Assembly: GCF_022846255.1 (NCBI RefSeq)
Contig: NZ_AP025682.1
Length of the DNA: 64,000 nucleotides
Strand: one strand, 5' to 3'
Source of the DNA: Escherichia coli
Lineage (GTDB): Bacteria; Pseudomonadota; Gammaproteobacteria; Enterobacterales; Enterobacteriaceae
The stretch's first letter is position 1; each line of letters opens with the position of its first letter. This document shows positions 42,277 to 62,770 of this stretch, piece after piece. Below the pieces are notes generated by a model that did not search any database, was not told the origin of the DNA, and saw only the letters and a program-made list of their open reading frames with translations. Position numbers and translations under genes: made by a program.

Positions 42277-44076
<1,800 letters not shown>

Positions 44077-44091
44077 CCCTTAGGAGTTGGC

Positions 44092-45066
44092 ATGGCGAAT
44101 ATGTTTGCCCTGATTCTGGTGATTGCCACACTGGTGACGGGCATTTTATGGTGCGTGGATAAATTCTTTTTCGCACCTAAACGGCGGGAACGTCAGGCAG
44201 CGGCGCAGGCGGCTGCCGGTGACTCACTGGATAAAGCAACACTGAAAAAGGTTGCGCCGAAGCCTGGCTGGCTGGAAACCGGTGCTTCTGTTTTTCCGGT
44301 GCTGGCTATCGTATTGATTGTGCGTTCGTTTATTTATGAACCGTTCCAGATCCCGTCAGGTTCGATGATGCCGACTCTGTTAATCGGTGATTTTATTCTG
44401 GTAGAGAAGTTTGCTTATGGCATTAAAGATCCTATCTACCAGAAAACGCTGATCGAAACCGGTCATCCGAAACGCGGCGATATCGTGGTCTTTAAATATC
44501 CGGAAGATCCAAAGCTTGATTACATCAAGCGCGCGGTGGGTTTACCGGGCGATAAAGTCACTTATGATCCGGTCTCGAAAGAGCTGACGATTCAACCGGG
44601 ATGCAGTTCCGGCCAGGTATGTGAAAACGCGCTGCCGGTCACCTACTCCAACGTGGAACCGAGCGATTTCGTTCAGACCTTCTCACGCCGTAATGGTGGG
44701 GAAGCGACCAGCGGATTCTTTGAAGTGCCGAAAAACGAAACCAAAGAAAATGGAATTCGTCTTTCCGAGCGTAAAGAGACACTGGGTGATGTGACGCATC
44801 GTATTCTGACAGTGCCGATTGCGCAGGACCAGGTGGGGATGTATTACCAGCAGCCAGGGCAACAACTGGCAACCTGGATTGTTCCGCCGGGACAATACTT
44901 CATGATGGGTGACAACCGCGACAACAGCGCGGACAGCCGTTACTGGGGCTTTGTGCCGGAAGCGAATCTGGTCGGTCGGGCAACGGCTATCTGGATGAGC
45001 TTCGATAAGCAAGAAGGCGAATGGCCGACAGGTGTGCGCTTAAGCCGCATTGGCGGCATCCATTAA
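44092..45066 (+). CDS. lepB: Signal peptidase I LepB (324 aa)
   Basis: Catalytic SGSMMPTL serine motif; two TM segments. Confidence 0.96.
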   Translation: MANMFALILVIATLVTGILWCVDKFFFAPKRRERQAAAQAAAGDSLDKATLKKVAPKPGWLETGASVFPVLAIVLIVRSFIYEPFQIPSGSMMPTLLIGDFILVEKFAYGIKDPIYQKTLIETGHPKRGDIVVFKYPEDPKLDYIKRAVGLPGDKVTYDPVSKELTIQPGCSSGQVCENALPVTYSNVEPSDFVQTFSRRNGGEATSGFFEVPKNETKENGIRLSERKETLGDVTHRILTVPIAQDQVGMYYQQPGQQLATWIVPPGQYFMMGDNRDNSADSRYWGFVPEANLVGRATAIWMSFDKQEGEWPTGVRLSRIGGIH

Positions 45067-45079
45067 TAGCCCATCTTCG

Positions 45080-45112
45080 TTCACGTTGTCGCCGTTATGG
45101 CGACAACGTGAA
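45080..45112 (+). terminator. lepAB terminator (long perfect palindrome)
   Basis: ttcacgttgtcgcc gttat ggcgacaacgtgaa, 14-bp stem, followed by ttatttat. Confidence 0.65.
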
Positions 45113-45308
45113 TTATTTATGAGATAAATCTCCCGTGGCTAACGACATCCCCCGTCGTTGTGTATAGAATATTCCCCCGAAGTTTAAGGTTGGCACCTCC
45201 AGGTTGCCACGGCACACGAAACAGCGTTGGTCCCCATATACCGGTAAACTGAAACTGCAGCGAAGCAGTTAGCAGAGCCATGTATATCAGGTCTGTTTCG
45301 TGTGCTGA

Positions 45309-46921
<1,613 letters not shown>

Positions 46922-46932
46922 GAGTAACTCCG

Positions 46933-47661
46933 ATGGAAGGCTGGCAGCGCGCATTTGTCCTGCATAGTCGCCCGTGGAGCGAAACCAGCTTGATGCTGGA
47001 CGTCTTCACGGAGGAATCGGGTCGCGTGCGTCTGGTTGCCAAAGGCGCACGCTCTAAACGCTCTACTCTGAAAGGTGCATTACAGCCTTTCACCCCTCTC
47101 TTGCTACGTTTCGGCGGGCGTGGCGAAGTAAAAACGCTGCGCAGTGCTGAAGCCGTCTCGCTGGCGCTGCCATTAAGCGGTATCACGCTTTACAGCGGTC
47201 TGTACATCAACGAACTTCTCTCCCGCGTACTGGAATACGAGACGCGCTTCTCTGAACTCTTTTTCGATTACTTGCACTGCATTCAGTCACTTGCAGGTGC
47301 CACTGGTACGCCAGAACCCGCGCTGCGCCGCTTTGAACTGGCACTGCTCGGGCATCTGGGCTATGGCGTCAATTTTACCCATTGTGCGGGTAGCGGCGAG
47401 CCGGTAGATGACACCATGACGTATCGTTATCGCGAAGAAAAAGGGTTTATCGCAAGCGTCGTTATCGACAATAAAACGTTCACCGGAAGGCAGTTAAAAG
47501 CGTTAAACGCGCGGGAATTTCCTGACGCAGACACACTGCGCGCCGCGAAACGCTTTACCCGCATGGCGCTTAAGCCGTATCTTGGCGGTAAACCATTAAA
47601 GAGCAGGGAACTGTTCCGGCAGTTTATGCCTAAGCGAACGGTGAAAACACATTATGAATGA
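46933..47661 (+). CDS. recO: DNA repair protein RecO (242 aa)
   Basis: [41 protein letters not shown]. Confidence 0.96.
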
Positions 47662-47672
47662 TGAGGATTGTC

Positions 47673-48404
47673 ATGGCTGAATTACTGTTAGGCGTCAACA
47701 TTGACCATATTGCAACGCTGCGTAACGCACGCGGTACTGCTTACCCGGATCCGGTGCAGGCGGCGTTTATTGCCGAGCAGGCGGGAGCAGACGGCATTAC
47801 CGTGCATTTACGTGAAGATCGCCGCCACATTACCGACCGCGATGTGCGCATCCTGCGTCAGACGCTGGATACCCGCATGAATCTGGAGATGGCGGTGACC
47901 GAAGAGATGCTGGCGATCGCCGTTGAGACGAAGCCACATTTTTGCTGTCTGGTACCGGAAAAGCGTCAGGAAGTAACAACCGAAGGCGGCCTGGACGTCG
48001 CTGGACAGCGTGAAAAAATGCGCGATGCCTGCAAACGTCTGGCGGAGGCCGGGATCCAGGTTTCTCTGTTTATCGACGCCGATGAAGAGCAGATCAAAGC
48101 TGCGGCAGAGGTTGGCGCACCGTTTATCGAGATCCACACAGGTTGCTATGCTGATGCCAAAACTGACGCCGAACAGGCGCAAGAGCTGGCGCGTATCGCC
48201 AAAGCCGCGACCTTTGCCGCCAGTCTCGGTCTGAAAGTTAACGCTGGTCACGGTCTGACCTATCACAACGTGAAAGCCATTGCCGCCATTCCTGAGATGC
48301 ACGAACTGAATATCGGTCATGCCATTATTGGTCGTGCAGTGATGACCGGACTGAAAGATGCGGTGGCAGAAATGAAGCGTCTGATGCTGGAAGTGCGTGG
48401 CTAA
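47673..48404 (+). CDS. pdxJ: Pyridoxine 5-phosphate synthase PdxJ (243 aa)
   Basis: [31 protein letters not shown]; start at ATG 47673 inside the track ORF. Confidence 0.95.
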
Positions 48405-48784
48405 TGGCAATATTAGGTTTAGGTACGGATATTGTGGAGATCGCTCGCATAGAAGCGGTGATCGCCCGATCCGGTGAACGCCTGGCACGCCGCGTATTAA
48501 GCGATAACGAATGGGCAATCTGGAAAACGCACCACCAGCCGGTGCGTTTTCTGGCGAAGCGTTTTGCTGTGAAAGAAGCGGCGGCAAAAGCGTTTGGCAC
48601 CGGGATCCGCAATGGTCTGGCGTTTAATCAATTTGAAGTATTCAATGATGAGCTCGGCAAACCACGGCTACGGCTATGGGGTGAGGCATTAAAACTGGCG
48701 GAAAAGCTCGGCGTTGTAAATATGCATGTAACGCTGGCAGATGAACGCCACTATGCTTGTGCCACGGTAATTATTGAAAGTTAA
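48404..48784 (+). CDS. acpS: Holo-[acyl-carrier-protein] synthase AcpS (126 aa)
   Basis: [32 protein letters not shown]. Confidence 0.96.
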
Positions 48785-48809
48785 AAAATACCGTTCTCTT
48801 TATAAAGTA

Positions 48810-48845
48810 AAACCCCCGAACTGGTAAGGAACGGGGGTTTTCAGT
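48810..48845 (+). terminator. Terminator after acpS
   Basis: cccccg ... cggggg inverted repeat followed by TTTT. Confidence 0.55.
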
Positions 48846-49204
48846 TTACAACTTTAATTTTGTGCAGCACACGATTCCAACGGAAATAATTATGGATCAA
48901 TTTCGTTGACCTGTACAAGCAACTTGCAATCTCTGACATAAAAAACGCGAGCCTTTACGAAGAAATCGACATTGATGAAAAGATTAACGTGACCGCTTTT
49001 TGATAAGTACATTAAAATCGGTTTCATTATTGGCAATTTTGCTGTGCTTTACACCATGCCACTGAATTCCCCCATTGAAACGAGTGGTGTCGTCAAAGCT
49101 CTGGTGTGGAGTGCAGCACTCGATTCCAATAACTCGCACGTTCAGTTTTGGGGAGATGTAAGGGCTAATCTGAACGGCTGCATTCCTTGTTTAAGGAAAA
49201 ACGA

Positions 49205-49285
49205 ATGACTGATTGCCGATACCTGATTAAACGGGTTATCAAAATCATCATTGCTGTTTTACAGCTGATCCTTCTGTTCTTATAA
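49205..49285 (+). CDS. shoB: Type I toxin ShoB (26 aa, MTDCRYLIKRVIKIIIAVLQLILLFL)
   Basis: Hand translation of atgactgattgccgatacctg...ctgttcttataa; hydrophobic small peptide; lies between acpS and yfhL as in K-12; too short for the ORF track. Confidence 0.85.
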   Translation: MTDCRYLIKRVIKIIIAVLQLILLFL

Positions 49286-49478
49286 CACAAGGAAACGTAC
49301 TTAAGGTGCGTCCGGTGAACCAGTCGGACGCGCCTTTAATAACTATAAATAAGTGTCTGGGCAGATACTATATAAATTAACTTAGTGAATGATTATGCTA
49401 ATGTCATCATTTAAATAAATATAATAGCGTTAAGATTTTTCTATAAAATAATTAACACTCTACTTCCAGAGCAGAATA

Positions 49479-49748
<270 letters not shown>

Positions 49749-49954
49749 TTACCGTTAAATCATTTTAAAAATCAGTAAGTTGTATCGAGTTTGTATGCTT
49801 TACTGTCATTAACTTACTGTATGTTGATCCAGTGTATTTAACCTTGATAAACTCAGTCCAGTAACACAAAGCCGCAACACATTGCATTTTGTCCCGTAGA
49901 AAAGACTTGTATGTGTGTGCTTGTTTTCTGCGCCTACGCAGATAAGGATTGAGA

Positions 49955-51352
49955 ATGCCGCGCACTGTAACACATAATCCGGATAGCCCCAATAATGACG
50001 ATGTTTTAGCCGCATCTGAAAAATGGGACGCCTGTAAACCCCCCTATACCAGCGCACACATGAAAATCTGTGTTGCTGCCGCCAAAATCATCCTCGCTGC
50101 TTCCGGCGTGGCTCGCCGTTCCAAATACGAAAAAGAGAACTATCTCCGTATCGATTTCAGCAAAGCCGGTAAGGTTACATTTTACGCCGAGTTTCCAAAA
50201 AAGATGGGCCTCAAAGGTAAAAAGCTCGGCGAGTGGCCGGAGCTCGCTATCCAGCTGGCGCGCGAAAAAGCGCTAGGTATGGCTGACGGTGGCCTGCGGG
50301 CAGAGTCCGTACATGCAGCGCTGGAAATGTACCGGGATGACCTCAAAGCCAAAGTCGCCCGGCAGAAGCTGAGCCCGGACAGTTTCACAACCTACGGGGT
50401 GCGTATCGACCGGATTAAAGCAACGTTCGGCGAGCGCGAGGTGTTCAGCGACGTAACATACAATCGGCTGGTGGAAGTGCTGGACGAGTGGATCGCTACT
50501 CGCTCGAACAATAACGCCCTGGAGTTGTTTGCCGAGCTCCGTCGGTTCTGGAAGTTCTGCGCACCTACTCTTTGCAACGGCCGCAATGTTGCCGCCAGTC
50601 TGCCAGATGATTATGTTTCCTCCCGCGTACAGAAACCTACCCCCACACGGCTTTTTACCGATATTGAATCAATCGCCCGACTCTGGCTCAATGTTGCTGC
50701 CTGCACCTCTGTACACCAGAAGAATGCTGTTCGCTTCATGATCATCACTGGTGTTCGTCCGATTAATGTCCATAACCTGCGCTGGGACTACGTTCACGAG
50801 GAGGCTGGTGAAATTGTTTATCCGGAAGGGGTTATCGGCATGCGAGGGGCTATGAAAACACAAAAGGCTTTCCGCCTGCCGATAACCCCTGAGATCCGGC
50901 GGATTATCGACGAGCAGAAAGCCTGGCGTGATTCAGTTCCTGAGTGCAACAGGGATTATGTATTTTTGCAGCCACGTGATCCAATGCAGCCATTTTCAAA
51001 ACGATCACTGGATAAGCTGGTGAAAACATACAGCCCGGACGGGGCTGTAAAAGGAATAAAACATGATGGGACTGTTAAAGGGAAAGACGGTGCATTTAAT
51101 ACGATGTGCCGTAAATTCCTTAAGAGCAATGTTATTGCCTTGATGAAGGAAAGAGGCTATTCCCGCTCAGACCGAAGGGAAATCAGCCTCCTTTGCCTTC
51201 ACCACTCCAGCAAGTCAGATGACCCGATGGCAGAACATTACGACTTTTCTGATGAGATTTTACAGGAAGAGATTGCGTTGAAGCGCGAAGCTTTCGAGGC
51301 TCACGAGCGGAGCATACTTGCGCAGGTGGCATTGCTACGGCGGCGAGGTTAA
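49955..51352 (+). CDS. Phage-type tyrosine integrase (start uncertain: TTG 49949, ATG 49955 with AAGGA RBS, or ATG 50060)
   Basis: C-terminal catalytic-domain pattern ending ...LHHSSKSDDPMAEHYDF with the tyrosine nucleophile; arm-binding-like N-terminus; position at the element boundary. Confidence 0.85.
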   Translation: MPRTVTHNPDSPNNDDVLAASEKWDACKPPYTSAHMKICVAAAKIILAASGVARRSKYEKENYLRIDFSKAGKVTFYAEFPKKMGLKGKKLGEWPELAIQLAREKALGMADGGLRAESVHAALEMYRDDLKAKVARQKLSPDSFTTYGVRIDRIKATFGEREVFSDVTYNRLVEVLDEWIATRSNNNALELFAELRRFWKFCAPTLCNGRNVAASLPDDYVSSRVQKPTPTRLFTDIESIARLWLNVAACTSVHQKNAVRFMIITGVRPINVHNLRWDYVHEEAGEIVYPEGVIGMRGAMKTQKAFRLPITPEIRRIIDEQKAWRDSVPECNRDYVFLQPRDPMQPFSKRSLDKLVKTYSPDGAVKGIKHDGTVKGKDGAFNTMCRKFLKSNVIALMKERGYSRSDRREISLLCLHHSSKSDDPMAEHYDFSDEILQEEIALKREAFEAHERSILAQVALLRRRG

Positions 51353-51549
51353 TACTGGCTGCGACATTTTTGAATAAAAGCGTCGATATTTCGGCGCTCA
51401 TAACGAACTACTTTTGCACTGAAACGAATTGGTGCCAGGATAGCCCGATGACGATGCTTAATATTCCACTCACATAGCGTTTTCTGTGTAATACCTAACT
51501 TTTGGCATACTTCATCCGGGGTGAGTAAATCGTCGGGTTTCTCGCTCAT
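51349..51549 (-). CDS. AlpA/excisionase-family small DNA-binding protein (66 aa)
   Basis: MSEKPDDLLTPDEVCQKLGITQKTLCEWNIK HTH resembling the AlpA/Xis family; convergent with and overlapping the integrase 3-prime end. Confidence 0.7.
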   Translation of the reverse strand: MSEKPDDLLTPDEVCQKLGITQKTLCEWNIKHRHRAILAPIRFSAKVVRYERRNIDAFIQKCRSQY

Positions 51550-52940
51550 GCTATACCTCTCTTTTTCATGGCATCGAGCAGGATGTCCTGCACTGTTCGT
51601 TTTGAGTTGCGCCGCTCCATCACCATTTCATCCATAGTGTCGGCAGCAATAATGTGGTGAATAAATACCGGACGATTGTGTCCGGCCTGTATCTGCCTGG
51701 TGGGGCCGATACGTTCAATAATTTGCTGATATTGCTCCAGGTCCCACCAGTGTGAGAAAAATACCAGTATATTTCCGCCGTCCTGCATGTTCAGGCCGTG
51801 GCCCGCGCTGGCTGGGTGTGCAAAGAGAACAGGAATCTTTCCGGAATTCCAGTCGCGCAGTGTCTGTGGATCCTGGTCGAGGTGACGACCGCGAGGGAAT
51901 GCTTTAAGCAAGCGTTCAAGATCGTGTTTCCAGTGATAAGCAACCAGCACAGGTGCGCCAGCTGCTTCGGTCAGTATGCTGTCCAGCGCCTGTAGTTTGG
52001 TGTCATGCAGTTCTGACCAACTTCCGGTGTCATCTGTGTATACTGCGCCGCTGGCGATTTGCAGACACTTCAGTGTCTTTGCCGCGGCGTTCGGTGCTTC
52101 GATGCCTTCGCCATTCAGCTCGAGGAACATTTCCTTTTCCATTTCACGATACTGCTGACGGGCCTTCGGTGGCATATCCACGCGGATTACGTTATGGATG
52201 GGGTCTTTGATATCGAACCAGTCGGCCGCATCCAGCGAGAGGGTTACATCGGCTAACGCTCGCTGTATTTCACCCTGTGAGTGAGCAAAAGGCTCCAGTT
52301 TGGTCCAGCTCTGCCCCGGAAACTGTATCGAGTTGAACCAGCGTGAGGTAAACGCGCCGTAAGTGCGCCCGAGACGTTGCCCCTGGTCCACAAACCACGA
52401 TTGTCCCCACAAATCTACCAGGCCGTTCGGTGCTGGCGTACCGGTGAGATTTATCCAGCGCCGGACATACTTATGCGCCACTTTGCCCAGCGCCGCCGCG
52501 CGCTTACCACCACCGCGCAGCCGGAAGGATTTTAGCCGGGTGCTTTCATCTGGAATGACAGTACCGAACGGCCATCGTTCTCCCAATTCTTCAATCAGCC
52601 AGACAAGGTTATCGTAGTTGATGGTGAACACGCTTGCGTTGCTGTTCGTCAGCGCCATAGAGCGCGCTTTGGCATTACCAATAATTGGCTGCACCTCGAT
52701 ATTGCGCAAATGTCCCCACTTCAGTGCTTCATCCGGCCATGTGCTGGCAGCCACGCGCAGCGGCGCGAGGACCAGTGCGGGGCATGTTTCTGCCCCTGCC
52801 ATAAAGAGATCTTCCAGCGCAGTGAGCGTTGCCACGGTTTTACCCATTCCCATCCCCGCCCAGATGTTGCCGCGCAGGGTTTCGGTTTCGTGGTTGATAA
52901 TGAGATCTTGGTAGGGGCGAGGTATATATTTTGGGGGCAT
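51546..52940 (-). CDS. SNF2/DEAD-like superfamily-2 helicase (464 aa)
   Basis: Walker A GMGMGKT, DExx-like VIPDESTRL, helicase C-terminal domain; AGGAG RBS 9 nt upstream of the ATG at 52940. Confidence 0.8.
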   Translation of the reverse strand: MPPKYIPRPYQDLIINHETETLRGNIWAGMGMGKTVATLTALEDLFMAGAETCPALVLAPLRVAASTWPDEALKWGHLRNIEVQPIIGNAKARSMALTNSNASVFTINYDNLVWLIEELGERWPFGTVIPDESTRLKSFRLRGGGKRAAALGKVAHKYVRRWINLTGTPAPNGLVDLWGQSWFVDQGQRLGRTYGAFTSRWFNSIQFPGQSWTKLEPFAHSQGEIQRALADVTLSLDAADWFDIKDPIHNVIRVDMPPKARQQYREMEKEMFLELNGEGIEAPNAAAKTLKCLQIASGAVYTDDTGSWSELHDTKLQALDSILTEAAGAPVLVAYHWKHDLERLLKAFPRGRHLDQDPQTLRDWNSGKIPVLFAHPASAGHGLNMQDGGNILVFFSHWWDLEQYQQIIERIGPTRQIQAGHNRPVFIHHIIAADTMDEMVMERRNSKRTVQDILLDAMKKRGIA

Positions 52941-52961
52941 ATAATATGGCTCCTAAACAAC

Positions 52962-52983
52962 AAAAGGCCAATTTAGGCCTTTT
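52962..52983. terminator. Terminator hairpin after the cargo gene at 53003..53920
   Basis: aaaaggcc aattta ggcctttt, 8-bp stem flanked by A/T runs (reads as a terminator on both strands). Confidence 0.6.
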
Positions 52984-53002
52984 GTTGTTTTAAAAATGTT
53001 AT

Positions 53003-53920
53003 TTATAATAGTGCTGTTACTATTGCATCTTTAAAAATATTTTCTTCTTCATTTATTAAAGGTGATGACAGATGAATAATTACTTCTTTTCCTGTCAATA
53101 CTATTTGCTCGACTTGAAATCCTGCGTTGTGTAGTCTTTGGCGTAACTTTTCTAGTGCTGATTTTGATATACTAAATCCTTCACTCCTTATAGTATAACT
53201 GGCAACTCCATTTTTAATAATATCTACAGAGTTGTCAATTTCCTGCTGCGAGTAATTTTTCGGTGAGTCGAAAAATCTGGATTTTGTCGTTGCTGTTGCC
53301 CTAAGAGATATCAATAATGATTTGATATCTTTAATCTCAGATGCCAGATACTCAGTTTCTGATACTTCTTTCTGGTCTAGTTGTGCAACTTTGAAAGTGC
53401 CAAAATGTTTGAGGAATGTTGTGTATTCAGGATCAGTTACTGACTTTAAATATGTTTCTTTTATCTTGCTCGCAAGTCTTTCTTTGAATAAATTGATTGA
53501 TTGGTATCTTAAATCCGAAGGGTACTCTAAATGTTCAATTGATGAAATGTCAAAGCTATAAGGAGTGCGCTCGTCCTTAATAATTACGGTCGGTTTGTCA
53601 AATGCGAGACGCATTCCTAATTCAAACATTACATTAGCGTTTCGAGCACTTATATCGCAAACAACTATGGGGTTTTCATAAAGATTTTGAACAATTCGTT
53701 TTTGTATTACTGCAACATCATCATCTGAACTTACCAAATTTGCCTTGAATCCGGCATCATTTGATGCTTCACAAATAATGTCATGAACATTTCTCCAATG
53801 TCCAGTGGGATAACCTTCTATGTCCGCAATTGGCATAATAATGCCGCATATATGAGGTGGCATATTTTTGTTGTCTTTTACATCATCTTGGTTTATTTCT
53901 TTCGTTTGTTGCTTAGCCAT
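53003..53920 (-). CDS. Hypothetical cargo protein (305 aa) with a Rossmann-like N-terminal domain of NDT/TIR-fold appearance and an unknown C-terminal domain
   Basis: N-terminal pattern ICGIIMPIAD ... IVVCDISARNANVMFELGMRLAFDKPTVII (beta-strand, then conserved Glu in an FELG context, as in nucleoside 2-deoxyribosyltransferase/TIR-like folds); gene is conspicuously AT-rich; own terminator. Confidence 0.5.
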   Translation of the reverse strand: MAKQQTKEINQDDVKDNKNMPPHICGIIMPIADIEGYPTGHWRNVHDIICEASNDAGFKANLVSSDDDVAVIQKRIVQNLYENPIVVCDISARNANVMFELGMRLAFDKPTVIIKDERTPYSFDISSIEHLEYPSDLRYQSINLFKERLASKIKETYLKSVTDPEYTTFLKHFGTFKVAQLDQKEVSETEYLASEIKDIKSLLISLRATATTKSRFFDSPKNYSQQEIDNSVDIIKNGVASYTIRSEGFSISKSALEKLRQRLHNAGFQVEQIVLTGKEVIIHLSSPLINEEENIFKDAIVTALL

Positions 53921-53935
53921 AGCTTACACAGACTC

Positions 53936-54220
53936 CTATTGTAATTTTTTGCCTAATATACATGAAAGCTCCTTACTATCCAGTACTACCACGGTAAAGC
54001 CCAGTTTTCGCAGACGTTCATGCTCGCGCAACTGATCAGGTCGTGGTGGTTTGCCTGGTGCTTTGCATTCGACAAAGACGATGCGACCGCCGGGTAGCAG
54101 AACAATGCGATCTGGTACCGAGCGGAGACCGGGAGATACGAACTTAAAGGCAACCCCGCCAGCCTTTTTTACTTCAGCGACGAGGTGCTTTTCGATTAGG
54201 TTTTCACGTTCATAGGCCAT
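53936..54220 (-). CDS. VRR-NUC domain nuclease (94 aa)
   Basis: PD-(D/E)xK-type motif ...PDRIVLLPGGRIVFVECKAPG...; typical partner of phage SNF2 helicases. Confidence 0.75.
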   Translation of the reverse strand: MAYERENLIEKHLVAEVKKAGGVAFKFVSPGLRSVPDRIVLLPGGRIVFVECKAPGKPPRPDQLREHERLRKLGFTVVVLDSKELSCILGKKLQ

Positions 54221-54414
54221 TAGCTTTCGCCTTCCTGCTTTTTGCGTTTCTTCATGCAGATAGCGCAGTTCTCAGGATGGTCATGCCATTCGTCAATCCT
54301 GATACCTGTGAACATCCATTTTCCGCATAGTGATATGGCTTCCCCCGAATTAAAGAAATGTGCTTTTTTCGACAGGGCGGGGAACCCCCAACCTTTATTA
54401 TCGATATTAGACAT
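54220..54414 (-). CDS. Small Cys/His-containing phage protein (64 aa), possible zinc ribbon
   Basis: ...SLCGKW...HDHPENCAICMKKRKKQ; stop overlaps the VRR-NUC start. Confidence 0.45.
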   Translation of the reverse strand: MSNIDNKGWGFPALSKKAHFFNSGEAISLCGKWMFTGIRIDEWHDHPENCAICMKKRKKQEGES

Positions 54415-54602
54415 CGTCCACCTCCTTACGCTTTTCGCGCATGTTCTGCATCAGACAAAAATCAAACCGACGTTCGCTTTGGCCCAGACCTGCATCGCCC
54501 GGTCGTACCCGCTGGACTGTTCAAGGCGCAAAGCCTCCCGCGCAGTCCGGTAATAAAGCGGACTGTCCCGGTATTTAAATGACATAGGGTTTTTATTCCC
54601 AA

Positions 54603-54625
54603 ATAAAAAACCCCGCAATGCAGGG
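54603..54625 (-). terminator. Rho-independent terminator after the TIR-like gene
   Basis: Minus-strand RNA cccugc auu gcgggg (one G-U pair) followed by UUUUUU. Confidence 0.6.
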
Positions 54626-54649
54626 TTGTAATCAACAATAAGGGGGTAA

Positions 54650-55411
54650 TTACGAGGAAGCGTTAGCTATTTGAGCTTGTGTAAATTCGAAACCAGAATT
54701 TTGTAACCGTTGCACTAGACGAGGAACTGTTTCACGTACATGGTCGTTGAAATTCAGATACAAAATCCCGTTAGCATCAGAAGGCTGTTCTAGGTGCTGT
54801 TTCTGAAGGATTGCTACATTGCTGCGCCCTAAGGACGAAAGAAGCATACCCATCTCGAGTACAACGTTCTGTCTTGCGCGGGGTTGGATTTCTGCTTCAC
54901 CGGCGCGCTTTGAGTATCCCATATCATCAGGTGTCAAAAGAACAATCCCGAAACGGGTAGCAGTTTGTCCTTGCCCAATTTCACGTTCAAGCTCTTCAAT
55001 AATGGTGAGTCCAGTCCCTCCCGTATTCTGCAAAATGAAATGGTCTGGTAATCCAAGTTTATGAAGGATTAGCTCAAGTTGTTCCTTTGCAGTATGGTCA
55101 TGGCCGTGAACAATGAATATCTTTTTGGGAAGCTCAGATGGCTGTTCTACGGCTAGTGGTGTTGCCGTGGGGGGCGTTCCTAAATGGGACATTATTGCAG
55201 TTTCAACATTGGGACGTTCTTGAGGGTTACCTTGAAACTGAATGGTCCGGGTGGTGTAAAGGTTAACAATTACGCCATTCGTTAAACGATAGCAGTCATA
55301 AGTCTCACGCTGTTCGTGGGAAAAATTGGTGAACCCACACTCCCTCAAAAAGTCAGGAAAAGATTCTCTCGGGTATGGATAGGTGATCGGCATTTCAGTT
55401 AGTTCCTGCAT
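54650..55411 (-). CDS. TIR-like nucleotide-binding domain protein (253 aa), Cap12-like TIR-like family with an unknown about 80-aa N-terminal domain
   Basis: KIFIVHGHDHTAKEQLELILHKLGL ... FGIVLLTPDDMGY ... RARQNVVLEMGMLLSSLGRSNVAIL, matching my recollection of the 'predicted nucleotide-binding protein containing TIR-like domain' family (PF10137); AAGGA RBS; own terminator. Confidence 0.65.
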   Translation of the reverse strand: MQELTEMPITYPYPRESFPDFLRECGFTNFSHEQRETYDCYRLTNGVIVNLYTTRTIQFQGNPQERPNVETAIMSHLGTPPTATPLAVEQPSELPKKIFIVHGHDHTAKEQLELILHKLGLPDHFILQNTGGTGLTIIEELEREIGQGQTATRFGIVLLTPDDMGYSKRAGEAEIQPRARQNVVLEMGMLLSSLGRSNVAILQKQHLEQPSDANGILYLNFNDHVRETVPRLVQRLQNSGFEFTQAQIANASS

Positions 55412-55475
55412 AAGTATTGTTCCTTTAATTTACTCGAATTCAGCATGTCGCCATAGCTCGATAAGGTGAGTTATA

Positions 55476-57551
55476 TCAATCTTTTTTGTAGTGGTACGCC
55501 TCAAAGCCGCCAGCGTTCAGCGGAATATCGGGTGCCCATTCGGGGTTAGTGGAGAGAAGCGCGGAAAGCGCTTTATCGTTGAAATCTTCTGTGTCTGGTG
55601 CTTCGGTGATCACCTCGTCGTGTACCGTTAGCACAATGCTGTAACCGGCACCCTCGATCAGCGGCATGTTTCTGGCCAGAACGTCGCGGGCGGCCGCCTG
55701 GGTGACGTTCTCCACCAGCTTTCCGCCGTAGGTTTTGAGTCGTTGCCATTTACGCGAATAAGAGTTAACACCCATGTAGGTGATATTCCCTTGTTCGATA
55801 ACCGGAGACGGGTAGCATACAGCGCGTCCGGATGGTAGCTGTATGCGCAGCCACGCGCCATCACGTCGGATTTTAAGATAGCCGCAATACAATGTTTTTT
55901 GCGGTGTGGCGATTGCTGTGCGGACAGTGCGCTCCAGCTCGTACCAGAAATCGCAGGTCGCCGGGTGCGCCCTGCGCCACAGGCGCTTGAGCGAGTCACA
56001 TGCGATGAATACACGCTCGGACAGGCCAAAGGTCGACTTACGCTTAACCGATTCGTCGTACCAGCTTTTTGCCTCGCGGATAACATCGCGGGGAATGTTT
56101 GGCAGTGCGGCGTTCGCCAGCTCGTCGAGATCGAGACCGTAAACCAGAGCAAAAGTGATGAAAGCCGATACACCACCTCCATAACCCAGACCGAGTTCCA
56201 TGACTTTACCGATCTGACGCATGTGTTTATCAACATCATCTGGTGCAATATCGAAAGCTTTTGCATACGCCAGTTTATATAAGTCCGGACCCGTTCCAGC
56301 GTCATACTCTCTGAATGCATTCAGTTTCCATTCTTCTCCCGCCAGCCATGCCAGCATACGGCCTTCAATGTTTGACAAGTCACTTACCACTAGTTTTTTG
56401 CCTGTTGGCGCGATAATGCAGCCACGTAACGCTGAACTGGTTAGTTCCATGATATTGTCAAACAGCAGGTCTGCACATCCGGCTTTCAGTGCTTCGATGC
56501 CTTCGTCTATTTGTTCCTGTTTTAGTGAAGGGCGGGGAAGGTTCTGGGGCTGGAATAGCCGTCCGGCCCAACGACCGGTACGTGACGCCCCGCAGAACTG
56601 TAGCGTACCGCGTAAGCGCCCGTCGTGGCTTACGCCTTTCATCAGTGCCTTGTATTTACTGGTGCTGGTAGTACTGGCTTGCAGGCGGATAGCCAGCAGT
56701 TCTTTCACGGCAGATGATAAATCGGGGTCGGCCATACGACGTTCCAGGGTACTGCGTTGCATGTCTGGTAGCTCCACACCGTAGGATTCAACGATGTGCT
56801 TAATCAACGCGTCCCGTTGTGTGGCTGCCTGCACTTCGCCATCAGTCATTTCCTGTGTACGCTTTGCTAGGCGCTTTTGCTCCTGGTCTACCGCTTCGAT
56901 CGCAGCGCGCGCGAGTTGCATGTCCATGCAGACGCCCCGGTCGTTGATCTGCTGATCACGATGCCAGAGCGCCAGCTCTGTCCCCTGATAATTCCACTTC
57001 GGCAGACGTTTATAGACTTCGCGCATTGCCTCGATATCCAGTCCGGCGTAAGCAACAAAGCGCCGCCATTCTTCCGGGTGGGTTTTGCTGGTGGCACGGC
57101 GCAGTTTGCTGTTTTTCGGGCGGGGCTTACAGAACAGCTGGATCAGCGCTTTACCTTCTTTGTCCTTCGCTTTGTCTTGCGGGACGCCGAGTATTTCGCA
57201 GAGTTCCCCCAGAGACCCCGGGAGACCGTGCGCCAGCGCCTGCACCATTGTGTCTCGCCAGCGTTTGGCGCTACCTGCAACAACGCATTGGGGAGTGTGC
57301 AGCAATGCATGGCGCAACATGGTGCGATCGAAATGGCTGTTGTGTGCATATATTAGTACGCTCTCATCGCTGAGAGCTGTCAGTAGTCGTGTCGGCAAGT
57401 TATAGTCTGTGGTTAAATCGTGTACGCTGACGGGGTCTTCGTCGATTGCCCATGCGAATAACATGATTTCGACTCCTTCTGCATAGACATGGGTGCCGTT
57501 TTTTATTGGGATTTCGCTGAAAGTTTCGAGGTCTAACCAAAGTTTTTGCAT
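55476..57551 (-). CDS. Phage family-A DNA polymerase with N-terminal 3-5 exonuclease (start at ATG 57551; track ORF extends to a TTG at 57593)
   Basis: Exo I motif LDLETFSE near the N-terminus, Exo-like [12 protein letters not shown], polymerase motif [14 protein letters not shown]-type motif YGGK. Confidence 0.85.
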
Positions 57552-57580
57552 CAAGTAAGGACCCGTTGGATTTAATAAAT

Positions 57581-57607
57581 AAAAAGCCGCCAAAATGGCG
57601 GCTTTTT
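57581..57607 (-). terminator. Rho-independent terminator after the SIR2-like gene
   Basis: Minus-strand aaaagccgcc atttt ggcggctttt followed by a U-rich tract. Confidence 0.65.
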
Positions 57608-57627
57608 ATAACCGAAGTTAAGAATGC

Positions 57628-59130
57628 TTAATATGATAAATAATCATACAAGCATAAAAGTCGCCTGTATTGGGTATCAATTTTATGCCCTGGTTTTGTT
57701 AAATAATCTCGTAGTTGTTTCAATGAAATAGTATCGTTTAGTACGCAATACATAATCGTGTTAGCAACTTTATACTCTTTCGTTTCTTTTAGTATTTCAT
57801 CAATAGACACAGCCTCACTCTTACATGTTTTAATTCGAGAAAGGTTACCAATGATTTTATCTAGCTGCCGTTTTCTGTATGTCTCGGTATTTTCTAGTTC
57901 AGGGCAGATAGAACTAAAAGCGTATATTGGAAAGTGTTCGCTATTAGCTATGGTTTGCTTATTCAGTAATGCGATAAGCTGAGAGTTTGCTTCGTCAACT
58001 ATTTTAAAATAGTTCTGTATCATTTCAGATTTTGTTTGATAAACATATTGTACGGTTCTTTCTGAACCAACAGCAATGACCATTTCATCATTGCGAAGTT
58101 CATCTAAATTTTCTGTAATTTTAACCTTTATCTCACCACCACTTTTGATGGTACTCCAAACTTTTTGAACCTTTCTTATGTCCATTGCGGATACTGGCAA
58201 AACTAGTCCCGAGATGGCATCATATACAGCTTTGTAATTGTTTGTTTTTATTTTGTTTATTCTTATGATAGACATGCCTTCTATATCTATGTCATGCTCC
58301 GTAATTTCAGTTGACATGCTGTCTTTTTCGTATTCAACCAAAAGAAAATTATCTTTTATCCTTTTTGCAAGTTCGGTATTTAAGTCAACGTATGAGAATA
58401 TGGTTTTTAATAAGTACTTAATGTTTTTATCGCTAATACTATACCCTATAAATATGATAGGGTTGTGTATGAATATTGAGAGTAATTGAGCGCGAATTAA
58501 CTCATATTTATTGTCGAAGTTTGCGTAGTCTTCACCTGTGATAATTATGTTGTTAGGATCACTAACACAGCCATGTATTTTGTAAACTGAACCGTATGGG
58601 TTACTTAAAAGAATGTTATTACCAATCAGTGGGTTAAATTCGAAGATGTTCTCTACGAGTTGGTCGTAGTTTGTTGTAATGATGGAGCCTATGTTTTTTC
58701 TTGTTTTTATTAAGCTGTTTATTTCCTCCATCATTGACTCTTTTATCTTTAGGTCTTTAAGTATTGAAGTTAAATAAATTTTGAATCGACTTAGTTTTTT
58801 TCCTTTTTTCATGTGCTCATAGAAAACATCATTGATGTCTTTGAACTTACCGTTACGATCTTCTGCCAGCTTTTTATTAAAAATATCTTCAAGTTTTGTA
58901 GCTAAGATATCATATCGATAGTCGTCACCTTCTAGGCTTTCAGCTTTCAAATCGTAGTAAAACTCAGCATTACCGGTTAGTTCCATTGCGACACTCAAAA
59001 GAAGACCATCCCAGCTAAATGAGTTTTCTAGATACCGTAGGCTAAATCCTGTTCCAATGAATAGAACAGGGTGGTTTTTATAGTGACTTACAAACTCTTG
59101 GATTTCCATACCGATTCTCAAAGTTGACAC
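57628..59130 (-). CDS. SIR2-like (sirtuin-fold, SIR2_2-type) protein, 500 aa, with an about 250-aa C-terminal domain of unknown type
   Basis: Motifs PVLFIGTGFS, SIITTNYD, YKIHGC and IIFIGYSISD, in the order seen in defence-associated SIR2 domains; GTG start at 59130 with AGAGG RBS (first ATG at 59109); roughly 30% GC by hand count versus about 50% in flanking polymerase; own terminator. Confidence 0.75.
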   Translation of the reverse strand: MSTLRIGMEIQEFVSHYKNHPVLFIGTGFSLRYLENSFSWDGLLLSVAMELTGNAEFYYDLKAESLEGDDYRYDILATKLEDIFNKKLAEDRNGKFKDINDVFYEHMKKGKKLSRFKIYLTSILKDLKIKESMMEEINSLIKTRKNIGSIITTNYDQLVENIFEFNPLIGNNILLSNPYGSVYKIHGCVSDPNNIIITGEDYANFDNKYELIRAQLLSIFIHNPIIFIGYSISDKNIKYLLKTIFSYVDLNTELAKRIKDNFLLVEYEKDSMSTEITEHDIDIEGMSIIRINKIKTNNYKAVYDAISGLVLPVSAMDIRKVQKVWSTIKSGGEIKVKITENLDELRNDEMVIAVGSERTVQYVYQTKSEMIQNYFKIVDEANSQLIALLNKQTIANSEHFPIYAFSSICPELENTETYRKRQLDKIIGNLSRIKTCKSEAVSIDEILKETKEYKVANTIMYCVLNDTISLKQLRDYLTKPGHKIDTQYRRLLCLYDYLSY

Positions 59131-59220
59131 GTAATACCTCTATAAAAACAAATAGCCGTAAAAATTCCAATAGCTTTTTGGATCTCGCCCGGTGTGTAAC
59201 CGGGCGTCTATGAAGAAGGG

Positions 59221-59769
59221 TTAAATCAGTGCTTCAGCATCAGCACCTTCGCTGATATCGTCGAAATCGTCAGCGCTTGCCACTCCGCCGCCAGCGAATG
59301 CATCGCCGTCTCGCAGGAACTGGACTCCGCCGAGTGAGGCATTAATGCGTTTACCGAAATTATTGTCCTGTGCCCAGATATCGATAACGGCGTTTACATA
59401 GCACCCTGCATAGGGACGTCCATCAGCCTGAATTAGTGGCGAACGATCGCGATCAAGAACAGCTGGGCGCGCTTTGTTAGCAGCGTTCAGGAAGAAATTG
59501 CCGGGAAAACCTTCATACTCTGCTTTTTCATCACCATCATGCAGGCACAGATTGAGTTTTTTCTCCAGCTGGTTATAAATGGACTCCCACTTCTCCCCCC
59601 ATTTTTCCTTCGCTACCTGCTTCATAGCTTTACGGATTTCTTCCAGTTGTGGGTGTTTGGGAGACATTAAAAATACTGCGGAGAAACGCGGATCGCCTTC
59701 GCCGTTTACAGTTTTAGCTTCAAACAGAGACGGGAAGGCCAGACGAACATTGTTCAACTTCAGTTTCAT
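59221..59769 (-). CDS. Phage ssDNA-binding protein (DUF2815-like, 182 aa)
   Basis: MKLKLNNVRLAFPSLFEAK N-terminus and acidic C-terminal tail (DDFDDISEGADAEALI), typical of phage SSBs. Confidence 0.7.
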   Translation of the reverse strand: MKLKLNNVRLAFPSLFEAKTVNGEGDPRFSAVFLMSPKHPQLEEIRKAMKQVAKEKWGEKWESIYNQLEKKLNLCLHDGDEKAEYEGFPGNFFLNAANKARPAVLDRDRSPLIQADGRPYAGCYVNAVIDIWAQDNNFGKRINASLGGVQFLRDGDAFAGGGVASADDFDDISEGADAEALI

Positions 59770-59784
59770 GGGTATTTCCTTAAA

Positions 59785-61086
59785 TCAGATGAGGTCTGCG
59801 GTTAGCGTATCGTCGGATACGTCGTCGAAATCATTTACAGGGTTGATATTGAGTGCGGGGCGTGGGTCTGACTCGGGAACGACGGTGGGTTTACCATCAG
59901 CTCGTGTTATCAGTGCCTCGACTTTTGACCAACGGCGCGGACTGGCCTTTTTGATAAGTTTTTCGGCTTTTGTGGGACTAATAAGTTTAAAGTCGAATAC
60001 TTCTTCAGTTTTGTACCTGAACTGGTCCTTCAGAAGTGCGCGAGCTGCCTCTTCATCACTCCAGGCCCGGTTACCTTGTTTTCCTGTTACCAGTTTAAAC
60101 CCCGGTACCGAATGTCCGGCATTGAGTTCATTGTGAACCCGGTCCCGTACTTCCTTTAGCCAGGATTCAATAAAGTCGGCCTGGCTATAGATCTCCGCAA
60201 GCTGCTCAATGGTTAACAGAGGTACACGTGCGCTGGCATTGGTGATTATTTCGCTGACAGGCTTTGTCAGATCTTCAAAGTCGCTGGCCGCTGTTTGTAA
60301 ATGCTGCATTTTCTGGGCAGTGCAAATAGCTTTTGCTTTACAGAAGCGGCACTGTTTTTCTCCAGGTATGAATTTTTCCAGCGGTAGTGTCTCAATGCCT
60401 TCGCATTCAGCAATATTGAGAACAAGCATCGCACTGGTTGCGGCCTCCTGTGCCCGTTCACCGAAAGACTGAAGTTCCTGCACGGTTAACGACCATTCTG
60501 AAACGTGGTTGAGCCTTGGCTGGTGAATAAATAATCTTACAGTCTCAAAGTCATACAGCATGCTGAATTGTTCGAGCGCACCCAGAGCATACAGTTGTAG
60601 TTGCTCATTTTGTTCTGCATCAATGCGGACGCCTTTGCCATATTTCAGGTCGTGGATTTGTAATTCGTTACCAGCGATGATTATGCCGTCGGCAGTTCCG
60701 AAAGATTCTTCCACACCCGTTATATGTGAGAAATCAACACGTTGTTCAACCAATAGTTCATTATTCTTTGCAAGAGTCCAGACCGTATCAACATACCGGC
60801 CGACGGCTTCGACCATTTCATCATCCACCTGTGGGCCAGATGTATCATCAGGATTTTCGCGAAGGGGGTATGAGCCGAGAAACATAGAAACATTGCATCC
60901 GGCGTAGTGTTCCGGGTGGCTTTGCCTGTTTCGTAGAACTTTTTCAGCAAGCGCGTGCGCTGCAGTGCCCTCGATTGCAAAAGTTGTTTCTTTATCCGGT
61001 TGTGTGGCCTCCAGCGCCAGACTTCCTGGGCAGCGCATCCATCGATGCGCTGATGATGGAGAAAGTTGTGCATGAACGTCTGGCAT
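59785..61086 (-). CDS. Phage PD-(D/E)xK nuclease (DUF2800-like, 433 aa)
   Basis: N-terminal [15 protein letters not shown] motif and C-terminal Cys cluster ([10 protein letters not shown]); acidic tail. Confidence 0.7.
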
Positions 61087-61088
61087 GA

Positions 61089-61991
61089 TTAACCCTCCAG
61101 TGCTTTTTCAGCCAGGGTGATTACTTCAGCGAGATTTTCATCCGTTACTTCACCAAGTTTCCTGGCTCCCTGTTTTTCCAGAATTGCAATAGCTTCTGCC
61201 CGGTAACCCCCTTTTGCTAACTGGAGGATCAACCCTTCAGCTTGTTTGCGTAGTGCCGCGAAATCAATTGTATGGTCATCTTTGGCGTCATTATTCTGGC
61301 TGGAATTTGCTGCGTCTCTGCGTGCAAATTCTTCCTGCAGCTGAAGGTACTCAACACGGTTGATCTCGATATGGCCTTTTTTCAGCATCTCGTTCAACTT
61401 GCGTAAGGTGTGGAGTTCACTGGCTGCTGTGCCGGATACATTTTTGACGTAAAACGGCCCCGTGCGTTCTCCATCTTTGTTACTGGCCTTTTTCGGCTTA
61501 ACTTCATCACGCCCATCCGCAGGTGCATCAAGTAGCTGCTCGGCAAAAGCACGTCGCTCGCCGATGGTTGGCAGGTCGTCCCAGAACTTAAGGATGTTAC
61601 GGGACAGGTCCAGGAGAGCAGGTTTAAGCAGCGCCCTGGCTCGTTTGACGCCCTGCAATGCGCTGTCGAGAGCATCAATCTGAACTACTCGTTTATCGCC
61701 TTCAGCATCACGGTAGGCAACAGCACGTTGCAGCATGTCTTCTGTGATAGGGGTGGCTACCGGGTAGAAACCCGCCAGTGCGATAACGTCGCTGAACTCC
61801 AGATCATCCAGTGTCATTGCCGCTGACATATTTTCAGTTTCAGTTGCTGTATCCCGACATTCCTGCACTCGTGAAATCGTGTCAGGATGCATAACAATGC
61901 CTGATGCCATTGTGCGGATAAGACGTTCAAGCAGCGCATTATGTTGTGCCAGAAGTTGATTATTAAGTTCTAGACTGGTTTCTAAACTCAT
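61089..61991 (-). CDS. Hypothetical phage protein (300 aa)
   Basis: ORF in operon upstream of the DUF2800 gene; no motif recognised. Confidence 0.5.
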
Positions 61992-62170: not shown

Positions 62171-62253
62171 GCTGTTGCGAGTGCGCTTTCAGACATAAAA
62201 AAGCCCGTCACTTGAGGCGGGCAAAGACTACACACAGCAATTACATGGATGAT

Positions 62254-62746: not shown

Positions 62747-62770
62747 ATGTGGTATAGAGTGAATTTACGC

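What the first reader, a model, noticed from the sequence alone, without database searches (positions are those of the whole stretch)
49100..49290. shoB type I toxin ORF present but invisible to the ORF track; antisense ohsC expected just upstream
The 26-codon hydrophobic ORF MTDCRYLIKRVIKIIIAVLQLILLFL at 49205..49285 is the ShoB membrane toxin as I recall it. Its antisense regulator OhsC should be encoded divergently in the roughly 100 bp upstream. The toxin-antitoxin pair lies less than 700 bp from the prophage junction, so it is worth checking that the prophage insertion left it intact.
Basis: partly seen in the sequence, partly recalled or inferred. Interest (0 to 1): 0.35.

Follow-up and report, generated by a model that had tools for sequence, protein, structure and literature searches.

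The report
Intact shoB–ohsC toxin–antitoxin locus
This is the ordinary, already known E. coli ShoB small-toxin gene with its OhsC antisense RNA, undamaged by the nearby prophage; it carries the less common of two natural versions in which the RNA and its target site have changed together.

Summary
Window 49205..49285 (+) encodes MTDCRYLIKRVIKIIIAVLQLILLFL, 26/26 identical to K-12 ShoB, in the K-12 gene order pdxJ-acpS-ohsC-shoB-yfhL. One detail is wrong: ohsC is not within about 100 bp upstream. Rfam places it at 48804..48881 (-), 89 bits, with its 5' end 324 bp upstream of the ATG, as in K-12. The 100 bp upstream of the ORF is the shoB 5' UTR, which holds the OhsC target (49111..49130) and an anti-SD/SD hairpin.

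The locus is intact. Promoters, SD, ORF and both terminator hairpins are present. The prophage junction lies at about 49710 inside the first codons of yfhL, about 425 bp past the shoB stop codon.

Aligning to K-12 shows 7 changed bases in the OhsC 5' seed and 7 in the target. Six are the same change on both sides, so pairing is kept: 18 Watson-Crick pairs, one G·U and one fixed U·U mismatch. About 31% of 5,426 complete E. coli genomes carry this "type B" allele and about 67% the K-12 "type A". Predicted cross-pairing is weak. I found one natural mismatched mosaic strain.

Verdict: a known system, low interest, with a modest testable side point about allele specificity.

The parts
48802..48881 (-). 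ohsC antitoxin sRNA gene. The 5' end is at 48881 and nt 1-20 are the seed that pairs with shoB mRNA. The 3' part is a G+C-rich terminator hairpin.
   Evidence: Rfam RF02495 matches 48804..48881, 89 bits, E=4e-14, full model 1-77. The K-12 annotated ohsC (b4608) maps to 48802..48881 through alignment A1. The fold shows the terminator hairpin.
48889..48918 (-). ohsC promoter: -10 CATAAT (48894..48889) and -35 TTGTAC/TGTACA (48918..48912).
   Evidence: Consensus scan. The hexamers match those tabulated for E. coli in PMC11264685: -10 CATAAT in 100% of loci, and the -35 TTGTAC variant in 33.1%.
48989..49018 (+). shoB promoter: -35 GTGACC (48989..48994), 18-nt spacer, -10 TAAAAT (49013..49018).
   Evidence: Consensus scan. 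These are the same hexamers reported as 99.9% and 99.6% conserved in PMC11264685.
49025..49204 (+). shoB 5' UTR of about 180 nt. The start is inferred from the -10 position and was not mapped here. It forms a long 5' hairpin followed by an anti-SD/SD hairpin.
   Evidence: The fold of 49025..49338 gives -109 kcal/mol, z = -6.0. The consensus structure over 10 haplotypes agrees. The predicted length of about 314 nt fits the ~320-nt full-length transcript cited in PMC5668327.
49111..49130 (+). OhsC target site in the shoB 5' UTR (GTGCAGCACTCGATTCCAAT). At the DNA level it is a direct repeat of 48862..48881.
   Evidence: It is the only site in the 64-kb window, other than ohsC itself, within 4 mismatches of the seed complement. 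The 20-nt seed/target duplex is -32.0 kcal/mol. Scanned against the whole mRNA the seed gives -32.9, against shuffled seeds at -16.5 ± 2.4 with a best of -26.8.
49183..49198 (+). Hairpin that sequesters the Shine-Dalgarno sequence: anti-SD TTCCTT (49183..49188) pairs with SD AAGGAA (49193..49198).
   Evidence: Predicted in the single fold and in the consensus fold, with all six pairs invariant in 10 haplotypes.
49205..49285 (+). shoB CDS: 26 codons plus stop, encoding the small hydrophobic membrane toxin.
   Evidence: Translation is identical to K-12 ShoB. RefSeq homologues are annotated as ShoB.
49303..49336 (+). shoB 3' terminator hairpin: a 14-bp stem followed by a weak U tract.
   Evidence: Folds. 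One-sided changes that keep the pair, and one two-sided change, occur among haplotypes. The simple terminator scan missed it because the T-run is short.
49479..49739 (-). yfhL (4Fe-4S ferredoxin), the convergent downstream neighbour. The prophage crossover lies in its first ~30 nt, at about 49710. It is context only and not part of the toxin-antitoxin pair.
   Evidence: ORF list. Homology to uninterrupted E. coli ends at 49729. A base-by-base comparison shows identity decaying from about 49710, and the N-terminus is MSLLITKR instead of MALLITKK.

Best explanation
This is the chromosomal shoB-ohsC type I toxin-antitoxin locus of E. coli, complete and at its usual site between acpS and yfhL. shoB is transcribed from a sigma-70 promoter as a highly structured mRNA of about 315 nt. 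Its SD is locked in a local hairpin and its 5' 40 nt pair with the region that OhsC recognises. Published K-12 work says only a transcript shortened at the 5' end by about 40 nt is translated into the 26-aa membrane-depolarising peptide. OhsC is a divergently transcribed sRNA of about 78 nt, 324 bp upstream. It uses its first 20 nt to pair with the 5' UTR 75-94 nt upstream of the start codon. This blocks translation, probably by the standby-site mechanism known for IstR-1/tisB, and exposes the duplex to RNase III. The window carries the minority 'type B' allele. Seven seed positions and seven target positions differ from K-12 in a matched way, leaving 18 Watson-Crick pairs, one terminal G·U and one central U·U mismatch. 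Shown here: the sequences, positions, synteny, pairing potential, allele frequencies and intactness. Inferred or taken from the literature: the transcription start, 5' processing, toxicity and mode of repression.
For: The peptide is identical to K-12 ShoB. ohsC is found by the Rfam model at 89 bits against a gathering score of 50. Gene order and spacing match K-12. The promoter hexamers, SD and ORF length equal those reported as over 99% conserved across E. coli. The mRNA fold has z = -6, with the SD sequestered and the target flanks paired to the 5' end. The predicted length fits the ~320-nt full-length and ~280-nt active forms quoted in PMC5668327. The seed/target duplex is -32 kcal/mol against -16.5 ± 2.4 for shuffled seeds, and the site is unique in the window. 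RNase III cleavage in the shoB/OhsC duplex region was detected in vivo in K-12 (PMC6212723). The type-B seed is identical in 1,692 complete genomes, and the type-B target region is present in 1,695. The prophage junction is about 425 bp beyond the stop codon and about 375 bp beyond the terminator.
Against: Nothing here measures expression, toxicity or repression. The shoB transcription start and processing site are inferred for this strain. The type-B duplex has a central U·U mismatch and is 7 kcal/mol weaker than in K-12. PMC11264685 states that sufficiency of pairing has not been established for shoB-ohsC. No Pfam or NCBIfam profile exists for ShoB, so identification of the toxin rests on sequence identity and synteny.
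Confidence: 0.93

Rival explanations
1. The pair is present but functionally uncoupled in this allele. The central U·U mismatch makes OhsC unable to repress shoB, so the locus is silenced only by the mRNA's own structure, or it is decaying.
For: The duplex is interrupted (9 + 9 bp) and weaker than in K-12, -32.0 against -39.2 kcal/mol. Pairing requirements have never been tested for shoB-ohsC. A strain with a frankly non-cognate pair exists and is viable.
Against: The mismatched configuration is fixed in about 1,600-1,690 genomes with an invariant seed, which is the opposite of decay. The ORF, SD and promoters are all conserved. For the analogous zorO-orzO pair, 17 nt with one internal mismatch is enough for repression (PMC11264685), and this duplex has 18 pairs plus a G·U.
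Confidence: 0.08
2. OhsC is a true overlapping cis-antisense RNA encoded within about 100 bp upstream of the ORF.
For: The 100 bp upstream does contain a 20-nt stretch complementary to OhsC (49111..49130).
Against: The Rfam hit is at 48804..48881 only. No promoter-like site occurs on the minus strand within 49100..49290. The K-12 annotation puts ohsC 323 bp from the shoB start codon. The literature describes the pair as divergent and non-overlapping (PMC3919570 and PMC2887945).
Confidence: 0.02
3. The prophage insertion leaves the sequence of shoB-ohsC intact but changes its expression indirectly. It replaces everything upstream of yfhL, so altered convergent transcription through yfhL could run antisense into the 3' end of shoB.
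For: The native upstream neighbour yfhH and the yfhH-yfhL spacer are replaced by phage DNA from about 49710 onward. yfhL is convergent with shoB, and only 193 bp separate the two stop codons.
Against: No data on transcription were obtained. A strong hairpin (49303..49336) lies between the two genes. The same prophage sits at the same site in 159 genomes.
Confidence: 0.05

Closest known systems
shoB-ohsC of E. coli K-12 MG1655 (b4687/b4608; Kawano 2005, Fozo 2008)
   Same: The peptide is identical. Gene order, orientation and spacing are the same (ohsC 5' end 323-324 bp from the ATG). The promoter hexamers, SD, anti-SD hairpin and both terminators are the same.
   Different: Seven of the 20 seed positions and seven of the 20 target positions differ (OhsC nt 5-9, 11 and 12). 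K-12 pairs 19 nt perfectly plus a G·U; the window pairs 9 + 9 nt around a U·U mismatch plus a G·U. The ohsC -35 is TTGTAC instead of TTGTAA. The whole ohsC-shoB interval is about 89% identical.
shoB-ohsC of phylogroup B2/D/E/F strains (e.g. O157:H7, ST131, E2348/69), called 'type B' here
   Same: The OhsC seed and target are the same as in the window. OhsC cloned from O157:H7 EDL933 has been used experimentally as a scaffold and control (PMC3919570).
   Different: There are only a few private SNPs. The best full-locus match is 99.0-99.1%.
tisB-istR-1 (E. coli)
   Same: The antitoxin is divergent and non-overlapping. Its 5' end pairs with about 20 nt far upstream of the RBS in a long structured 5' UTR. 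The primary transcript is inactive and 5' processing activates it. RNase III cleaves the duplex (PMC4147584 and PMC5668327).
   Different: There is no sequence similarity. tisB is LexA-controlled and has the upstream tisA ORF. The standby-site mechanism is demonstrated for tisB and only inferred for shoB.
zorO-orzO / zorP-orzP (E. coli O157:H7)
   Same: The architecture is divergent, with an 18-nt 5' seed. Sequence variation in the pairing region sets the specificity between variants (PMC3919570 and PMC11264685).
   Different: The zor-orz variants coexist as tandem paralogues in one genome. The shoB-ohsC variants are alleles of a single-copy locus split between lineages.

Membership tests
ShoB type I toxin | 26-aa hydrophobic peptide with the ShoB sequence | tested here: met
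   26/26 identical to K-12 b4687. Identical to the peptide encoded by RefSeq loci annotated WP_000128776.1 ShoB.
ShoB type I toxin | Conserved chromosomal position between acpS and yfhL | tested here: met
   The order pdxJ-acpS-ohsC-shoB-yfhL is collinear with K-12 and other E. coli.
ShoB type I toxin | Own promoter, a long structured 5' UTR and the SD AAGGAA | tested here: met
   GTGACC/TAAAAT promoter and the SD at 49193..49198, as tabulated in PMC11264685. The fold has z = -6.
ShoB type I toxin | Match to a curated protein family profile | tested here: inconclusive
   No hit in Pfam-A or NCBIfam at E <= 1. For a 26-aa peptide this result carries no weight either way.
ShoB type I toxin | Overexpression is toxic and depolarises the membrane | not testable with these tools
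   Reported for the identical K-12 peptide (Fozo 2008, as cited in PMC5668327).
OhsC antitoxin sRNA (Rfam RF02495) | Covariance-model score above the gathering threshold | tested here: met
   89 bits against 50, full-length match 1-77.
OhsC antitoxin sRNA (Rfam RF02495) | Transcribed divergently from shoB from a promoter with -10 CATAAT, and ended by an intrinsic terminator hairpin | tested here: met
   Minus strand, with -10 CATAAT at 48894..48889. A 10-bp G+C-rich hairpin followed by a U tract.
OhsC antitoxin sRNA (Rfam RF02495) | The 5' end is complementary to about 19 nt of the shoB 5' UTR | tested here: met
   nt 1-20 pair with 49130..49111: 18 Watson-Crick pairs, 1 G·U and 1 internal U·U, -32 kcal/mol, at a site unique in the window. 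The duplex is interrupted, unlike the 19 continuous pairs in K-12.
OhsC antitoxin sRNA (Rfam RF02495) | Represses ShoB synthesis and toxicity | not testable with these tools
   Shown for K-12 only (Fozo 2008, through). Sufficiency of pairing in variant alleles is explicitly left open in PMC11264685.
Divergent (tisB/istR-1-like) type I TA architecture | The antitoxin does not overlap the toxin gene, and its target lies far upstream of the RBS in the 5' UTR | tested here: met
   The two inferred transcription starts are 143 bp apart. The target lies 75-94 nt upstream of the ATG.

The most novel reading that the evidence does not exclude
shoB-ohsC exists in E. coli as two specificity alleles that do not cross-repress: type A in about 67% of genomes and type B in about 31%. 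The 20-nt OhsC seed and its target are a direct DNA repeat 249 bp apart that changed in concert at 6-7 clustered positions. The variable core lies in a predicted internal loop of the shoB 5' hairpin, so it would be free to evolve and available for first contact with OhsC. Under this reading the U·U mismatch fixed in type B is a tuned feature rather than damage. Rare mosaics such as strain Z1323CEC0015 (type-B seed with type-A target) would then be natural strains lacking effective antitoxin pairing.
Probability: 0.4. Interest if true: 0.35.

Novelty: already known. Interest (0 to 1): 0.15.

Why it matters
For annotation, this confirms a small toxin gene and an sRNA gene that length-thresholded ORF tracks miss. 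It also shows that the prophage at yfhL did not damage them.

The side result fills a gap left open in the 2024 survey of more than 2,000 E. coli genomes (PMC11264685). That study saw large variation in the shoB-ohsC pairing region but could not say whether pairing potential is kept. Here the variation resolves into two matched allele classes in tight linkage: 1,692 genomes with the type-B seed and 1,695 with the type-B target. Predicted cognate duplexes are -32 to -39 kcal/mol and cross duplexes -17 to -19 kcal/mol.

This gives ready-made natural reagents to define the pairing rules of OhsC: two alleles, a fixed internal mismatch and one natural mosaic. It is an incremental point within a known system.

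Tried and rejected
- Pfam-A and NCBIfam scans of the 26-aa peptide gave no hit, so they could not serve as a membership test.
- Fozo et al. 2008 (PMC2597788) and Fozo 2012 (RNA Biol) are not held. The transcript sizes and the '19 nt' figure are therefore quoted second-hand from PMC5668327 and PMC3919570.
- The simple terminator scan found none in 48700..49800, because both terminators have short or interrupted T-runs. Folding shows the hairpins.
- Sub-threshold Rfam hits were dismissed as chance: rnk_pseudo at 23 bits, overlapping the ohsC terminator, and mir-208 at 19 bits.
- Chimeric queries (type-B ohsC with type-A UTR, and the reverse) were used to look for recombinants. Only one record rose above the parental background, at 96.0%; the reverse chimera gave nothing above 95.1%. 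This ranking can miss recombinants with other breakpoints, so the marginal counts are the stronger evidence for linkage.
- I folded a transcript shortened by 40 nt to model the processed form. The MFE structure has an ensemble frequency of 0.0001 and I do not know the real processing site, so I draw no conclusion from it.
- I considered that the K-12 differences in the antisense region mean disruption. I rejected this because the changes are matched on both sides and fixed in about 1,690 genomes.
- The 41-aa minus-strand ORF antisense to shoB (49165..49290) and the in-frame TTG extension (49187) were treated as artefacts of mechanical ORF listing.

Full report
**1. Observation**

Window 49205..49285 (+) translates to MTDCRYLIKRVIKIIIAVLQLILLFL followed by a stop. 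The K-12 shoB CDS (b4687, NC_000913.3 2700117..2700197) gives the identical peptide. At the DNA level the two ORFs differ by one synonymous base. An SD AAGGAA lies 6 nt before the ATG. The mechanical ORF list shows the ORF only at min_aa 20, as a 32-aa ORF from an upstream in-frame TTG. That explains why a thresholded ORF track would not show it.

The surrounding genes are pdxJ (47658..48404), acpS (48404..48784) and yfhL (49479..49739, minus strand), as in K-12 and other E. coli. The 696-bp acpS-yfhL interval matches 5,425 of 5,426 complete E. coli genomes. RefSeq annotates the ORF there as 'type I toxin-antitoxin system toxin ShoB'.

**2. Where OhsC is**

A scan against all Rfam families finds ohsC_RNA (RF02495) at 48804..48881 on the minus strand. 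The score is 89 bits against a gathering score of 50, E = 4e-14, with a full-length match. The K-12 annotated ohsC (b4608) maps through the alignment to 48802..48881.

Its 5' end is therefore 324 bp upstream of the shoB ATG (323 bp in K-12), not about 100 bp, and it lies outside the interval of the finding. The 100 bp upstream of the ORF is shoB 5' UTR. No minus-strand promoter-like site occurs within 49100..49290. The pair is divergent and non-overlapping, as the literature describes (PMC3919570 and PMC2887945).

**3. Anatomy**

- **Promoters.** The consensus scan recovers the shoB promoter (-35 GTGACC at 48989, -10 TAAAAT ending at 49018) and the ohsC promoter (-35 TGTACA/TTGTAC, -10 CATAAT, 48917..48889 on the minus strand). 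These are the hexamers reported as conserved across more than 2,000 E. coli genomes. TTGTAC is the 33% variant of the ohsC -35 (PMC11264685).
- **Transcript length.** A start about 7 nt after the -10 (about 49025, inferred) and the hairpin at 49303..49336 give an mRNA of about 314 nt. This fits the ~320-nt full-length transcript reported for K-12 (Fozo 2008, as cited in PMC5668327).
- **mRNA structure.** The RNA is far more structured than shuffled controls: -109 kcal/mol, z = -6.0, with 0 of 100 shuffles as stable. A consensus fold over ten distinct haplotypes gives the same picture. The first ~35 nt pair with the conserved outer parts of the OhsC target. The SD AAGGAA (49193..49198) is paired with TTCCTT (49183..49188), and all six pairs are invariant.
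- **Processing.** According to PMC5668327, only a ~280-nt form processed at the 5' end is translated. Removing about 40 nt would delete the strand that masks the target. That step is an inference; my fold of such a shortened RNA was too uncertain to use.

**4. The pairing**

OhsC nt 1-20 (GUUGGAAUCGUGUGCUGCAC, window 48881 to 48862) pair with shoB 49130 to 49111.

- The duplex has 18 Watson-Crick pairs, a terminal G·U and one central U·U (OhsC U11 opposite U49120), at -32.0 kcal/mol.
- Scanned against the whole mRNA the seed gives -32.9 kcal/mol. Shuffled seeds give -16.5 ± 2.4, with a best of -26.8 in 1,000 shuffles.
- The site is the only one in the 64-kb window, apart from ohsC itself, within four mismatches of the seed complement.
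- At the DNA level the seed and the target are a 20-nt direct repeat 249 bp apart.

**5. Comparison with K-12 and the allele structure**

On the plus strand the ohsC side reads CACACGATTCC where K-12 reads CATGCACCCTC. The shoB side reads CACTCGATTCC where K-12 reads CATGCACCCTC. That is seven changes on each side, six of them identical.

| Measure | Type B (window-like) | Type A (K-12-like) |
|---|---|---|
| Identity of the ohsC-shoB interval to the window | 95-99%, 1,735 genomes | 80-90%, 3,654 genomes |
| Genomes with the type-B seed region, all identical over the informative 28+ nt | 1,692 | not applicable |
| Genomes by identity of the 66-nt target region to the window | 1,695 at 95% or more (1,590 exact) | about 3,540 at 90-95% |

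The near-equality of 1,692 and 1,695 indicates tight linkage of the seed and target types. All eight type-B representatives I read have the same U·U configuration. They include O157:H7, O6:K2:H1 and other strains.

Predicted 20-nt duplex energies:

| OhsC allele | shoB target allele | Energy (kcal/mol) |
|---|---|---|
| A | A | -39.2 |
| B | B | -32.0 |
| A | B | -17.0 |
| B | A | -19.3 |

The seven variable target bases fall in a predicted internal loop of the 5' hairpin, while the conserved flanks are paired. This would explain why they are free to vary. It is an inference from the folds.

[quoted passage not shown] For zor-orz, 17 nt with one internal mismatch suffices for repression, and the window's duplex exceeds that.

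**6. Exceptions found**

- Chimeric queries found one mosaic, NZ_CP148423.1 (strain Z1323CEC0015). It carries a patch of about 45 bp of type-B sequence, covering the OhsC seed and the ohsC promoter, inside a type-A locus. This gives a non-cognate pair.
- The reverse chimera found none.
- Truly disrupted loci look different. One strain has an IS66 element between ohsC and shoB (NZ_AP022351.1). Another has lost shoB next to an IS1 (NZ_CP060748.1).
- The window shows none of these.

**7. The prophage**

- **Junction.** Homology to uninterrupted E. coli ends at 49729. Base by base, identity decays from about 49710, within the first ten codons of yfhL.
- **yfhL is regenerated.** Its ORF now starts MSLLITKR instead of MALLITKK.
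- **Distance.** The junction is about 425 bp beyond the shoB stop codon and about 375 bp beyond its terminator. No part of the toxin-antitoxin pair is touched.
- **Gene content.** The inserted DNA encodes an integrase, an SNF2 helicase, a family A DNA polymerase, a DUF2800/PD-(D/E)XK nuclease and a CI-like repressor.
- **Identity and distribution.** It is 99.3% identical over 62% of its length to induced phages vB_EcoM-689R2, 611R5 and 606R2. It sits at the same site in 159 complete genomes.

**8. Mechanism, and what is shown versus inferred**

Shown here: sequence identity, positions, promoter hexamers, predicted structures, pairing potential, allele frequencies and intactness.

Taken from the literature on the identical K-12 peptide and the homologous RNAs:
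- toxicity and membrane depolarisation on overexpression;
- rescue by OhsC;
- an inactive full-length mRNA and an active processed mRNA;
- inhibition of protein synthesis;
- RNase III cleavage within the duplex region in vivo.

Inferred: OhsC blocks a standby or unfolding region 75-94 nt upstream of the ATG, as IstR-1 does on tisB. Also inferred: the two alleles do not cross-repress.

**9. Verdict**

[quoted passage not shown] Novelty: already known. Interest is low. The matched two-allele structure of the seed and target is a modest, testable addition to what has been published.

Noticed in passing
window 49710-64000 (runs off the window end): A temperate prophage is integrated into the first ~30 nt of yfhL and regenerates the ORF. 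It is 99.3% identical over 62% to induced phages vB_EcoM-689R2, 611R5 and 606R2, and it sits at the same site in 159 of 5,426 complete E. coli genomes. yfhL loses its native upstream neighbour yfhH.
   Followed up: partly
window 54650-55411 (-) and 57628-59130 (-): Among its replication genes the prophage carries two candidate anti-phage defence genes. One is a TIR-domain protein (PADLOC PDC-S35, 360 bits; Pfam CAP12-PCTIR_TIR). The other is a SIR2-like protein (PADLOC PDC-S25, 526 bits; weaker ThsA-like match).
   Followed up: partly
L013 (NZ_CP148423.1, strain Z1323CEC0015), equivalent to window 48870-48913: This is a natural mosaic. A patch of about 45 bp of type-B sequence, covering the OhsC seed and the ohsC promoter, sits inside an otherwise type-A locus. 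It gives a non-cognate OhsC/shoB pair with a predicted duplex of -19.3 kcal/mol.
   Followed up: yes
L015 (NZ_AP022351.1) and L016 (NZ_CP060748.1): These are examples of truly disrupted loci in other strains. One has an IS66-family element inserted between ohsC and shoB. The other has an IS1 where shoB should be and has lost shoB, with only about 70 bp of the ohsC region matching.
   Followed up: partly
window 49303-49336 and the same columns in L003, L009 and L012: The shoB terminator stem exists in at least three haplotypes. Most of the differences keep the pair: five stem positions show one-sided changes and one shows a two-sided change. In two haplotypes one position is unpaired (A·A).
   Followed up: no
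window 49033 / 49126 (mRNA columns 9 and 102): The base pair closing the variable internal loop of the shoB 5' hairpin is G-C, G·U or A-U in different haplotypes. A third element, the 5' end of the mRNA, therefore tracks the target allele in part.
   Followed up: partly
window 42787-49729: The chromosomal backbone is 97.8% identical to strain 2015C-4136CT1, the best hit for the acpS-yfhL interval, and 95.3% to K-12 over 46902-49729. The best complete-genome match to the acpS-yfhL interval is 99.1% (none is identical). The exact source strain is apparently not among the 5,426 complete genomes, although its prophage end is (100% in strain 82.0312).
   Followed up: no
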